Positions 15,001 through 18,000 of a DNA stretch of 62,855 nucleotides are shown in pieces. A program made the position numbers. The stretch is from a virus (taxonomy: Duplodnaviria > Heunggongvirae > Uroviricota > Caudoviricetes). The number at the start of each line of letters is the position of its first letter. Within the stretch, counting starts at the first letter, position 1. The DNA lies in IMG/VR virus record IMGVR_UViG_2534681831_000041; one strand, 5' to 3'.

Positions 15001-18000
15001 GTTGGTGCTTTTTAATAGCGAGAAATTATTACTTAACTGATTTTTAAAGTGATTTATTTTTTAAGGGGGCAGATAACAGGAGGGGATATGCAAAGAAAAA
15101 CCCGGCGCATGGGCCGGGCTATTTATCTGGTCCTGTTCTCATTCAGTAGAGTAGGGGCCAAGAAATCGCACTCCGTTGAAGTGAATAAGATGAGAAGGTG
15201 CATCAGCCACCCATACCTCTGTTTCCCATGCGATTTCACCAAGATATCGCCCCATGATGGAGCGATTTGGAAAAGCGGTCACATAGACAAGTCCGGCTGT
15301 TGATCCGGCAAACAGTCTGGCAAGCTCAGCATGCCGCTTCCCATCAACCGGTCCATGACTGGTGACAGACTCAACCAGTAGCAGCCAGTTTTTCGCAGTA
15401 AAATGTAGCACCACATCTGGCATTTTACCGTGTGAATCCACATCAACACCTAGCCCGGCCAGCAGTGGAGCGTCGAAGTAGCCCCACTTTTCGCCAGTGT
15501 CGCCAGCATAGACCAGCACGCTACCCGGAGCAAAACGTGGGGCGAAGTCCTCTATTATGGCACGGATAAGTTCGCTGTGCTCGCCGGGACTGAGGGTTAT
15601 TTGCTGGCCCGCAGCAATTTCAACAGGGATACGATTCTGTTCGCGCTCCTTAGCATAGCGGGTAACCAGCGTTTCACGCTCGGCTAAATAGGTTGCAAGG
15701 CTATCGTGCCATGCCGGGCTGCCGAAAGTGCGTAGCATGGACAGAGCAGCAGGTTCGATCTGATAAACAGCCTTCGGGCTGTTCACTGGGCGATCGGGCT
15801 TGTCCGGATTGTAGAGGGCTACTCCAGCAGCGCAGAACTGATGCATAGACTGGCGGCGGAATGTCTCACGAGTATTGGGTGCGTAGACCTTGCCGTAGTG
15901 CTCCCGAACCCAATTCATGATTGGTGTAATGCCCACAAGCGGATTTTCCGCGTCGGCCCATGCTTTTCCCGGTGTGAGGTTCAGGAGTGCCAGCAAACAC
16001 AAAGCAGAACGCTCATTCTGCTGCGCTCTGGGCAGGCCTAAGGATGCTATAATTTGCTGAGCGGCCTCAATATAATCATTTTGGTTGTTCATGCAGTCAG
16101 AGCTCCTAGCTTAGCGTCAATATGTTCTTGCGTGAGAGTTTCTTGTTGCATAGCCCACTTGCCAAGCTCTATCAGAGTGTCACGGCTTGGGTACTTAATC
16201 ATCTTGAGGTCGGTTGCATTGACCTGTGTATGCCCGTTGAAGCGACGGAAATACTTATCCACTGCGGTAGTGTTCAGGAACACGGCCAAGCCACGGGCCA
16301 GCGCCTCGGGTAACCCATGTTTGTTCTCATGAAACACGTTCATGTGATTTTCAAATCCCAACACTGAATACTCACTGAAGGTAGCAGGATCAACGACGCT
16401 TGCTACCACTCGGCGCTTTTCCTCCTTCGACGAGAAACGACGCACCACACAATAAAAACCGTTCGGGTAAAGCCACTTTTCTGTCTCGTCGTTGCGCATG
16501 ATTGCGTTGGGTTTCTTCAAACCTTCCACAGGCCAGACAGTGCTACTCATACTCAAATGGCTCGGGTAGATCAGGGGAACAGTTCCTTCTTCTGGCATGC
16601 TGCGCAAATGAGCTTTCAGTCGGAAATCAACTATCGGTCCGGTCGATACCTTCACGCCAATATCAGCCAGCGAACATTGTACGGCAGATGATAACTCAAT
16701 GGCGCTTTTCTCGAGCGTGGTCGGCACATGAATAAACCGCTCCGAATCGTCCGGGTACACAATCTGGTCAAATGGGTGTTCGTAGGTGACCAGGTCAAAA
16801 AAGCTATCATCGGTCGAAGTTGTGACTGTAACAGCCTCCTGACGGCCTCCACGCTCCAGGCGGATGATAATATTTTCCTGCAACACATCGTCATCCCTGA
16901 AAGCTTTGCTACGTGATTCGAACAAATGAATATGGCGGATTGCTGCCCGCTCAAGTATGAAATTACGGAACGGACGGTAATACGGTCCGTTGCAGAAACT
17001 ACGTGGGATTATGGCCACTATCTGCCCGCCAGGTGCAACCTCACCTACAGCCAGTGCAACAAAGGCGGAATACAGATTTACCGTCTCGATACCGACAGTG
17101 CGAAGAGCCTGCCGGTGGGCTGACTGGCTATTGATCTTCTTGTAAGGCGGATTAAGTATTGCATGGGTATAACCTCGATCCTGTAGACCTTCGGCGGTTG
17201 CCAGCTCAATATAATCCCCTTCGATGATGCGGGGCGTCACTCTCCTGTACCCGGTTAAGTGCTTCGCAAGGTGACCACACAGCTTTTTGTCGATTTCGTA
17301 GGCTGTTGCCTCGACAGACTCAAAGCCAAACTCGCCAACCAGCCAACGGTCGAGGAAGGCGCAAGACAGTGCGCCTACACCAGCGCCTGCGTCCAGTAGA
17401 CGGCAAGTTTTCATTGTGCTCGGTGGAAACAAGGAGGCCATAAAACGGGCCACGCCAGAAGGCGTCATGAACTGGCCGAACTCAGCTTTGTGTTTACGCG
17501 CGGTACGGGGAGACAGCTCGCGACGCACGCTGTCTGCGACGTCTAGCTTTTGAAGCATAACTAATCCTCTTTACGTGGCATGATGATGCCAACGTGCTTT
17601 TGACATCCTCCACATTCTTCAGGCGTGAAGGATGTCAAATCACTCTGTGAGCTCAATCAAAAGTCTCATCATTCCACTGCGATTTGATGACCTTTCCGAC
17701 AAACTGGCAGTTTTCGTTACACTCAATCATGTCGAATCGTGGGTTGAGCGGCTCCAGGTACGCTTTACCGCTCTCACGAATGAATCGTTTGAAGGTAAAT
17801 TCATCGCCGTTCATTCGGGCCACGCAAAAATCGCCATCCTCGATTTCCCGTTCAGGGTCAACGAGTATCAGCATACCTTCAGGGAAGCTGGGTTTACCAC
17901 CCTGCGGTGCGGTCATTGAATGCCCCTTGACCTCCAGCCAGAACGACCTGTCACTGGCTTTTGTGGTGGTGGAGATCCATTTAATCGCATCTTTTGCGGT

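What the first reader, a model, noticed from the sequence alone, without database searches (positions are those of the whole stretch)
15139..17558. PstI-family restriction-modification pair in the position lambda gives to rexAB
A methyltransferase (FMTP/NPPY motifs) and a BsuBI/PstI-family endonuclease overlap by 4 nt and sit directly downstream of a lambda-like cI on the same strand, followed by a terminator. That is the lysogen-expressed slot occupied by the rexAB exclusion system in lambda, so the prophage would give its host a CTGCAG-type defence module. A PstI-like RM on an Stx2 prophage has been reported in O104:H4 from memory, so this may be a known arrangement rather than a new one.
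Basis: partly seen in the sequence, partly recalled or inferred. Interest (0 to 1): 0.55.

Follow-up and report, generated by a model that had tools for sequence, protein, structure and literature searches.

The report
EcoGIII restriction-modification pair, Stx2 prophage

Summary
A 489-aa gamma-class N6-adenine methyltransferase (16089-17558, minus strand) and a 317-aa BsuBI/PstI-family endonuclease (15139-16092, minus strand) overlap by ATGA. They lie 94 nt downstream of a lambda-like cI on the same strand. An intrinsic terminator follows them, then a repressor-operator/PL-like promoter and a phi80-type nutL. That is the position of rexAB in lambda.

The system is already known. The endonuclease is 100% identical to that of the O104:H4 Stx2a phage P13374 (R.EcoGIII), and the methyltransferase differs from it at two non-conserved residues. 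The 2,420-bp cassette is 100% identical to E. coli O111:H- strain 95NR1. Published SMRT data for that strain show m6A at 2434 of 2434 CTGCAG sites. Papers citing Fang et al. 2012 report that EcoGIII methylates and cleaves CTGCAG, restricts lambda-like phage and alters host transcription. A cloned EcoGIII also cuts plasmid conjugation.

The cassette occurs in 98 phage records and 139 of 5,426 complete E. coli genomes, and every phage record with this cI C-terminal half has it. Both proteins keep all family-invariant residues.

What is not shown is co-transcription with cI from PRM, and the role of a conserved 16-bp hairpin in the cI-M spacer. Verdict: real, correctly interpreted, already described, low interest.

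The parts
16089..17558 (-). M gene: gamma-class N6-adenine DNA methyltransferase, 489 aa (M.EcoGIII allele = M.Eco95NR1III). Motif X FMTP is at nt 17460-17471, motif I DAGAGVG at 17373-17393, motif IV NPPY at 17142-17153. SD AGAGGA lies 7 nt before the ATG.
   Evidence: Family-invariant residues T32, G60, G62 and N136-P137-P138-Y139 are present. 100% DNA identity to strain 95NR1. The exact protein is on 275 contigs.
15139..16092 (-). R gene: BsuBI/PstI-family Type II restriction endonuclease, 317 aa (R.EcoGIII). N-terminal wHTH domain plus C-terminal PD-(D/E)XK-like domain. P225-D226 is at nt 15415-20 and E241 at nt 15370-72.
   Evidence: Matches SdaI (2IXS) at E 1.2e-77. Family-invariant R79, P225, D226, R253, W294, H304 and G307 and near-invariant E241 are present. 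100% identical to P13374 ORF30. The exact protein is on >=1000 contigs.
16089..16092 (-). ATGA overlap of the M stop and the R start (a translational-coupling arrangement). An AGGAG lies 10 nt upstream of the R ATG.
17653..18366 (-). cI repressor, 237 aa, lambda-like (HTH plus S24 autopeptidase), immediately upstream of M on the same strand.
   Evidence: 61% identity to lambda cI. Annotated as cI in P13374.
17599..17639 (-). 16-bp-stem hairpin in the 94-nt cI-M spacer (UUUGACAUCCUUCACG ... UGUGGAGGAUGUCAAA), with no U-run. Its function is unknown.
   Evidence: Fold of the 126-nt stretch 17540-17665: -40.6 kcal/mol, z = -3.3, 0 of 200 shuffles as stable. Conserved in the 95.7%-identical O103:H2 variant, with a 1-nt loop insertion.
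15091..15120 (-). Intrinsic-terminator-like hairpin plus U-run that closes the cI-M-R unit (equivalent to lambda t-imm).
   Evidence: Retained in O103:H2 12009 with a stem C-to-T change that keeps a G-U pair.
14968..15010 (-). PL-like promoter (TTTACA-17-TATATT, 14968-14996) overlapped by two operator-like sites: AATCACCGCAAGTTATA (14970-14986) and AAGCACCAACGGTATTT (14994-15010). They resemble the OR-side site TATCACCTTTGGTTATA (18371-18387).
   Evidence: Operator assignment is by sequence resemblance only.
14701..14888 (-). nutL-like leader, 94% identical to the phi80 nutL region (boxA plus core), downstream of PL.
18371..18437 (+). OR region with the PR-like promoter (TTGACA-17-AATGAT, 18409-18437) and operator-like sites. 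The divergent cro follows (ORF 18426-18665; RefSeq start corresponds to 18462).
   Evidence: Cro Pfam match E 4.8e-34.

Best explanation
The two genes are the EcoGIII Type IIP restriction-modification (RM) system, a PstI/BsuBI isoschizomer pair carried as cargo in the immunity region of a short-tailed Stx2a-converting prophage integrated at argW. In the lysogen the methyltransferase puts m6A on the adenine of every CTGCAG site. The endonuclease cuts incoming DNA (other lambdoid phages, conjugating plasmids) that lacks that mark. The pair sits between cI and OL/PL on the cI strand and ends in a terminator. No consensus-type sigma-70 promoter lies in the spacer. It is therefore most likely made from the repressor transcript (PRM read-through), as rexAB is in lambda. 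M-before-R gene order and the ATGA overlap would give the methylase a head start. Shown: identity, family membership, gene order and flanking signals (here); methylation, cleavage and restriction phenotype (literature). Inferred: the promoter used, and translational coupling.
For: Family: Pfam BsuBI_PstI_RE_N and BsuBI_PstI_RE at E 1e-54 and 5e-61, and Eco57I-type MTase above its cut-off. PADLOC gives full-length REase_II and MTase_II matches at E 2e-168 and 2e-248. R matches the structurally solved SdaI (CCTGCAGG) at E 1e-77.

Catalytic and invariant residues are all present.

Identity: R is 100% identical and M is 487/489 identical to O104:H4 phage P13374. M residue 61 falls at a position with no majority residue in the family consensus; residue 286 was not examined. 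The cassette is 100% identical over 2,420 bp to strain 95NR1.

Experiment in the literature: 95NR1 and 95JB1 have 100% m6A at CTGCAG, assigned to this phage-borne M. EcoGIII is described there as shown to methylate and cleave CTGCAG, to protect against lambda-like phage and to affect about 1,900 genes (PMC6602927). [quoted passage not shown] Cloned EcoGIII in recipients lowers pESBL conjugation unless the donor also carries it (PMC4288162).

Position: cI, then a 94-nt spacer, M, R, a terminator, OL/PL and nutL. No promoter-like site in the spacer passes the scan threshold.
Against: Nothing contradicts the identification. The transcription model is untested here. The promoter scan is crude and found sites at chance frequency (4 against 3.9 expected), so a weak private promoter cannot be excluded. 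The strong hairpin in the cI-M spacer could attenuate or process the transcript, so expression may not be simple read-through. The primary paper (Fang et al. 2012, PMID 23138224) is not in the held library, so its results are cited second-hand.
Confidence: 0.93

Rival explanations
1. The pair's main selective value is as a selfish addiction module. If the prophage (or its immunity region) is lost, residual endonuclease cuts the progressively unmethylated chromosome. That stabilises the prophage, and defence is a by-product.
For: General behaviour of Type II RM systems (established knowledge, Kobayashi-type post-segregational killing). The cassette is never separated from the cI C-terminal half in the phage collection: the same number of phage records (98) match the cI/spacer segment and the 3.7-kb cI-M-R-cro query, and every listed cI hit lies in a record that also carries the pair. 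The recombination breakpoint lies inside cI. A second addiction-type pair (a Panacea-domain antitoxin gene plus a partner) sits next to it in O103:H2 12009.
Against: Not tested here. It does not exclude the defence phenotype reported in the literature, and the two roles are compatible.
Confidence: 0.3
2. The important function is epigenetic. CTGCAG methylation by M reprograms host and prophage transcription, and R merely enforces retention of M.
For: The literature states that EcoGIII directly or indirectly affects about 1,900 genes and growth in O104:H4 C227-11 (PMC6602927; bioRxiv 2024.04.17.589803).
Against: Those effects came from deleting the system in one strain, and cause and mechanism are unclear from the secondary sources. 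R is fully conserved: the exact protein is on >=1000 contigs. That argues R is under selection for its own activity.
Confidence: 0.25
3. The RM pair has its own promoter or control element in the cI-M spacer and is not expressed as part of the repressor operon. The rexAB analogy would then be positional only.
For: The 94-nt spacer is long compared with a simple operon junction. It holds a 16-bp hairpin that is conserved in a 95.7%-identical variant. The hairpin arms each carry TTGACA.
Against: No -10 element at proper spacing follows either TTGACA (reading; scan). No C-protein (controller) ORF is present, and Pfam finds no HTH domain in M.
Confidence: 0.25
4. The endonuclease or the methylase is a decayed, inactive copy (an orphan methylase with a dead partner).
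For: None, beyond the two M substitutions (V61, A286) relative to the O104:H4 allele.
Against: Both ORFs are full length. All invariant residues are kept. Residue 61 is at a position with no majority residue in the family consensus; residue 286 was not examined. The identical cassette in 95NR1 gives 100% CTGCAG methylation. R is identical to the biochemically active enzyme.
Confidence: 0.02

Closest known systems
EcoGIII RM system of Stx2a prophage phiStx104/P13374 in E. coli O104:H4 (Fang et al. 2012), and its named alleles M.Eco95JB1III / M.Eco95NR1III on Stx2 prophage Phi10 of O111:H- (PMC6602927)
   Same: Same genes, same prophage type and same position next to cI. R is 100% identical and M is 99.6% identical to P13374. 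The cassette is 100% identical at DNA level to 95NR1. The whole window is 99.85-99.98% identical to the 95NR1 prophage over the 37.6 kb compared.
   Different: Two M substitutions relative to O104:H4 (V61L, A286T). The window lacks two IS1203 insertions that the 95NR1 prophage has.
PstI (Providencia stuartii) and BsuBI (Bacillus subtilis) RM systems, the founders of Pfam PF06616/PF17728
   Same: Same two-domain endonuclease family and same gamma-class m6A methylase type. Same CTGCAG specificity according to the literature on EcoGIII.
   Different: Their sequences could not be fetched for direct alignment. They are chromosomal or cellular, not prophage immunity-region cargo. Gene orientation in PstI is, from memory, divergent rather than tandem with overlap.
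SdaI endonuclease (PDB 2IXS), which recognises CCTGCAGG
   Same: Alignable end to end (E 1.2e-77), with the same wHTH plus PD-(D/E)XK-like architecture. PD and E residues are conserved.
   Different: The window protein has T244 where SdaI has a lysine. Among 35 aligned family members, T is the commonest residue at that position, and the SdaI row has K. Recognition is 8 bp in SdaI against 6 bp here.
Lambda rexA-rexB (and other cargo in the cI-to-OL slot, e.g. phi80 protein 40A)
   Same: Same map position and strand: downstream of cI, upstream of OL/PL, closed by a terminator. Expected to be expressed in the lysogen and to exclude other phages.
   Different: No sequence or mechanistic relation. 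Rex is an abortive-infection system that senses infection. This is a methylation-based self/non-self nuclease.
Single-chain M-R fusions of the same family (about 840 aa; PADLOC PDLC03359)
   Same: Both window proteins align full length to the two halves of these fusions.
   Different: Here the two activities are separate polypeptides encoded by overlapping genes.

Membership tests
BsuBI/PstI family Type II restriction endonucleases (Pfam PF17728 + PF06616) | N-terminal HTH domain and C-terminal nuclease domain both score above the Pfam gathering thresholds over their full length | tested here: met
   184.4 and 205.2 bits against cut-offs of 27, covering profile positions 3-139/140 and 1-153/154.
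BsuBI/PstI family Type II restriction endonucleases (Pfam PF17728 + PF06616) | Conserved catalytic-core residues (the PD motif and the downstream acidic residue) and other family-invariant positions | tested here: met
   P225, D226, R253, W294, H304 and G307 are invariant, and E241 is 34/35, in a 35-sequence alignment that includes SdaI. All are present in the window protein.
BsuBI/PstI family Type II restriction endonucleases (Pfam PF17728 + PF06616) | Cleavage at CTGCAG | not testable with these tools
   Second-hand from the literature only. R is 100% identical to the C227-11 enzyme, which is described as biochemically active on CTGCAG (PMC3893438; PMC6602927).
Gamma-class N6-adenine DNA methyltransferases | Motif order X (FxTP), then I (xGxGxG), then IV (NPPY), followed by a C-terminal target-recognition region | tested here: met
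   FMTP at aa 30-33, DAGAGVG at 56-62 and NPPY at 136-139. T32, G60, G62 and NPPY are invariant across 19 family members. Eco57I-type Pfam domain at 37.5 bits against a cut-off of 25.3.
Gamma-class N6-adenine DNA methyltransferases | m6A at CTGC(A)G in vivo | not testable with these tools
   Published SMRT data: 2434/2434 sites methylated in 95NR1 (PMC6602927). The 95NR1 cassette is 100% identical to the window.
EcoGIII (REBASE-named system of O104:H4 phiStx104) | Near-identity of both proteins and the same prophage context | tested here: met
   R 317/317 and M 487/489 identical to P13374. The 3.7 kb including cI and cro is 99.8% identical.
Lambda immunity-region cargo slot (rexAB position) | Located between cI and OL/PL, on the cI strand, closed by a terminator | tested here: met
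   Gene order and strand. Terminator at 15091-15120. PL-like promoter with operator-like sites at 14968-15010. phi80-type nutL at 14701-14888.
Lambda immunity-region cargo slot (rexAB position) | Co-transcription with cI from PRM in the lysogen | not testable with these tools
   Indirect evidence only. No promoter-like site in the 94-nt spacer. Methylation is complete in lysogens (PMC6602927).
Rex (RexA/RexB) exclusion proteins | Sequence homology to RexA or RexB | tested here: not met
   Pfam and PADLOC assign both proteins to RM families only. The resemblance is positional, not familial.
C-protein-controlled Type II RM systems | A small HTH controller ORF and C-box upstream of R | tested here: not met
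   No extra ORF lies between cI, M and R. M and R overlap by 4 nt. Pfam reports no HTH domain in M.

The most novel reading that the evidence does not exclude
The conserved 16-bp hairpin in the cI-M spacer (17599-17639) may be a dedicated control element, such as an RNase III processing site or an attenuator. It could uncouple or set the ratio of repressor to RM expression, and so solve the establishment problem of bringing a restriction enzyme into an unmethylated new host. The complete absence of CTGCAG from the 20.8-kb left arm (624-21455) may be a related adaptation of the phage to its own enzyme.
Probability: 0.12. Interest if true: 0.35.

Novelty: already known. Interest (0 to 1): 0.08.

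Why it matters
It matters only as confirmation. Stx2a-converting prophages of the P13374/TL-2011c type give their hosts a PstI-type barrier to foreign DNA and a genome-wide CTGCAG methylation mark, and this has been known and experimentally characterised since 2012. The window adds another copy, identical to the O111:H- 95NR1 allele. Two details might still be worth a specialist's hour. First, how the pair is expressed relative to cI, including the role of the spacer hairpin. Second, why the cassette is always linked to one cI C-terminal half across two immunity types.

Tried and rejected
1. I tried to read the primary EcoGIII paper (Fang et al. 2012) by DOI and by PMC id. It is not held, so I relied on three papers that cite it.

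2. I considered that the 'prophage-encoded rRNA methyltransferase' of phages PA2/PA8 (PMC10810198) might be this M. It is not. That enzyme is the MT-A70 protein near the int end of the phage. It corresponds to window 3436-4062.

3. The search for homologous proteins with R returned only near-identical E. coli copies, which were useless for a residue-conservation test. I used the 50%-representative search instead.

4. I looked for catalytic-residue information on SdaI/PstI in two reviews and found nothing usable. The statement that T244 replaces the SdaI lysine rests on the alignment only.

5. I looked for a private promoter in the cI-M spacer. None met the scan criteria.

6. I looked for an N gene between PL/nutL and the Rha-like gene. 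There is no minus-strand ORF of 40 aa or more. The longest ATG-initiated reading frame in the six-frame translation is a 31-aa peptide.

7. A Markov-chain simulation of CTGCAG depletion timed out. I replaced it with analytic expectations.

8. The NCBIfam scan gave no family for R and only sub-threshold hits for M.

Full report
**Observation**

One search lists a 489-aa ORF at 16089..17558 and a 317-aa ORF at 15139..16092, both on the minus strand. They share four bases, read as gcATGAac, so the M stop overlaps the R start. A 237-aa ORF at 17653..18366 lies 94 nt upstream on the same strand. The upstream protein of the pair carries FMTP (aa 30-33), DAGAGVG (56-62) and NPPY (136-139).

**Family assignment**

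- The 317-aa protein matches both Pfam domains of the BsuBI/PstI endonuclease family over their full length (E 1.2e-54 and 4.6e-61).
- The 489-aa protein matches the Eco57I-type N6-adenine methylase domain above its gathering score.
- PADLOC gives full-length matches to Type II REase and MTase models (E 1.6e-168 and 2.1e-248). Both proteins also match the two halves of an 840-aa fused model.
- The only solved structure related to R is SdaI (2IXS), alignable from residue 8 to 315 at E 1.2e-77.
- The 237-aa protein has HTH_3 plus Peptidase_S24. A Cro-family gene diverges from it.

**Catalytic residues**

- A search of 50%-identity representatives found 2,778 family members.
- I aligned 33 stand-alone members and SdaI with the window R. 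P225-D226, R79, R253, W294, H304 and G307 are invariant, and E241 is 34 of 35. The window protein has all of them.
- Position 244, a lysine in SdaI, is threonine here and in most of the family, so it is not a family-wide catalytic position.
- I aligned the window M with the N-terminal halves of 18 fused relatives. T32, G60, G62 and N136-P137-P138-Y139 are invariant, and all are present.

**Identity with a known system**

- The 3.7 kb from the end of R to cro is 99.7-99.8% identical to dozens of annotated phage records. These include P13374 and phiON-2011 from E. coli O104:H4, TL-2011c from O103:H25, Shigella phage Ss-VASD, and PA2/PA8 and VT2phi_272 from O157:H7. The genes are annotated there as methylase, restriction endonuclease, cI and cro.
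- Against P13374, R is identical, cI is identical, and M differs at two residues, V61L and A286T. Residue 61 is at a position with no majority residue in the family consensus.
- In complete E. coli genomes the cassette occurs in 139 of 5,426, always on the chromosome. It is 100% identical over all 2,420 bases to strain 95NR1.
- Over the 37.6 kb compared, the window matches the 95NR1 Stx2a prophage at argW at 99.85-99.98%, apart from two IS1203 copies that 95NR1 has and the window lacks.
- The exact R protein is recorded on at least 1,000 contigs and the exact M protein on 275.

**What the literature says**

The primary paper (Fang et al. 2012, Nat Biotechnol 30:1232, PMID 23138224) is not in the held library. 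Three papers report its content.

- PMC6602927 studies 95JB1 and 95NR1 themselves. [quoted passage not shown] It finds m6A at 2390/2390 and 2434/2434 CTGCAG sites. It states that EcoGIII was shown to methylate and cleave CTGCAG, to protect against lambda-like phages and to affect about 1,900 genes.
- PMC3893438 shows 98.8% CTGCAG methylation in an O145 strain whose Stx2a prophage has the cassette and 0% in one that lacks it. [quoted passage not shown]
- PMC4288162 shows that cloned EcoGIII in a recipient lowers conjugation of pESBL unless the donor also carries it.

**Position**

- Directly after the R stop there is a GC-rich 8-bp hairpin followed by UUUUUCUUU (15091-15120).
- Next on the minus strand comes a promoter-like site, TTTACA-17-TATATT (14968-14996). 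It is overlapped by AATCACCGCAAGTTATA and AAGCACCAACGGTATTT. These resemble TATCACCTTTGGTTATA in the cI-cro intergenic region and, from memory, the lambda operator consensus.
- Downstream of that promoter, 14701-14888 is 94% identical to the annotated nutL boxA and core of phage phi80.
- The order is thus OR/PRM, cI, M, R, terminator, OL/PL, nutL. This is the lambda order with rexA-rexB replaced.
- The phi80 record shows a different cargo gene (protein 40A) in the same place.
- In O103:H2 strain 12009 the same RM pair (95.7% identical) is followed by an extra Panacea-domain gene and a partner ORF. It is preceded by a cI whose N-terminal DNA-binding half is different but whose C-terminal half is near-identical.
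- In the phage collection the same number of records (98) match the cI/spacer segment and the 3.7-kb query spanning R, M, cI and cro.
- The slot interpretation is supported structurally. Co-transcription from PRM is an inference: no promoter-like site in the 94-nt spacer met the scan criteria, and methylation is complete in lysogens.

**Mechanism**

- Shown by others for the identical or near-identical proteins: M methylates the adenine of CTGCAG on both strands, R cleaves unmethylated CTGCAG, and lysogens restrict lambda-like phage and unmodified plasmid.
- Shown here: both enzymes are intact, and they are arranged M-first with overlapping stop and start codons inside the immunity region.
- Inferred: expression from the repressor transcript, translational coupling that gives M a head start, and possible additional roles as an addiction module or epigenetic regulator. 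These roles do not exclude defence.

**Unexplained detail**

The cI-M spacer folds into a 16-bp hairpin plus a second small one. The 126-nt stretch gives -40.6 kcal/mol, z = -3.3, and none of 200 shuffles folds as well. The hairpin is conserved in the divergent O103:H2 variant with only a one-base loop insertion. It has no U-run, and its TTGACA-containing arms have no matching -10 element. I could not determine its role, and all relatives are too similar for covariation analysis.

**CTGCAG sites**

- The window has 11 sites. Base composition predicts 15, and the density of the O111 chromosome implies about 14 (1,195 palindromic sites in 5.4 Mb, derived from the counts). Overall the site is not clearly avoided.
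- None of the 11 lies between 624 and 21455, a 20.8-kb stretch where 4.6 to 9 are expected.
- This is a post hoc observation with nominal Poisson P of about 0.01 or less. I did not test it in related phages.

**Verdict**

Novelty: already known. Interest: low.

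Noticed in passing
window 14439-14626 (-), 13740-14522 (-), 13522-13605 (-), 5226-5315 (-): Rfam gathering-level hits to isrK (14551-14626) and C4 antisense RNA (14439-14526) lie just upstream of a Rha/Ash-like ORF (13740-14522). They are preceded by a second promoter-like site (14633-14661) and include a terminator-like hairpin (14556-14571). Two sRNA-Xcc1 hits each sit upstream of an ORF6N/antirepressor-type gene. This looks like P1 immI-style c4/ant antirepressor modules placed where lambda has N.
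   Followed up: partly
window 14523-14968 (-): A phi80-type nutL (94% identical, boxA plus core) follows PL, but no N-like ORF does. Nothing of 40 aa or more lies on the minus strand before the Rha-like gene, and the longest ATG-initiated frame is a 31-aa peptide. I did not resolve what reads this nut site.
   Followed up: partly
window 17599-17639 (-): A 16-bp perfect-stem hairpin lies in the cI-M spacer (z = -3.3 for the 126-nt stretch 17540-17665). It is conserved in the divergent O103:H2 12009 variant, has no U-run, and its function is unknown.
   Followed up: partly
window 624-21455: This 20.8-kb stretch (integrase through immunity and the start of the replication genes) has no CTGCAG site where 4.6-9 are expected. 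The other 10 prophage sites all lie to the right. Post hoc, and not compared with RM-free relatives.
   Followed up: partly
L003 1470-2320 (E. coli O103:H2 12009): In a heteroimmune relative, the same slot carries a Panacea-domain (SocA-like antitoxin) gene and a 126-aa partner between the RM terminator and OL. The cI has a different N-terminal half but a near-identical C-terminal half. The recombination junction is therefore inside cI, and the slot accumulates several cargo modules.
   Followed up: partly
proteins P0136, P0139, P0140 etc.: Many relatives of this RM pair exist as single polypeptides of about 840 aa, with the methylase at the N-terminus and the endonuclease at the C-terminus.
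   Followed up: no
window 3436-4062 (-) and 4059-4490 (-): An MT-A70 family methyltransferase (Pfam E 5e-22) lies next to a small upstream ORF with a weak HTH_11 hit. The position matches that of the M.EcoPA8orf6770P/PNB-2 pair, which is reported to methylate 16S rRNA and raise spontaneous Stx-prophage induction (PMC10810198). It is intact here, whereas the copy in phage PA2 is IS629-disrupted.
   Followed up: partly
window 1-181, 549-623, 51945-53259, 25786-26045: The window starts inside an IS1203/IS3-family copy. It then contains tRNA-Arg(CCU) (argW, the attachment site, which itself holds one CTGCAG at 558). A full IS3-family element with an ALIL pseudoknot lies at about 51.9-53.3 kb, next to a 2,806-aa ORF (53281-61701). 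The STnc100 and AsxR sRNA loci lie just downstream of the stx2 genes (stx2A at 24471-25430).
   Followed up: no
window R residue 244 (nt 15361-15363): The window protein and most of the family have threonine where SdaI has a lysine. From memory, that lysine is part of the SdaI active-site motif. The third catalytic residue of PstI-type enzymes may therefore lie elsewhere, and the invariant R253 or the conserved K223 are candidates.
   Followed up: partly
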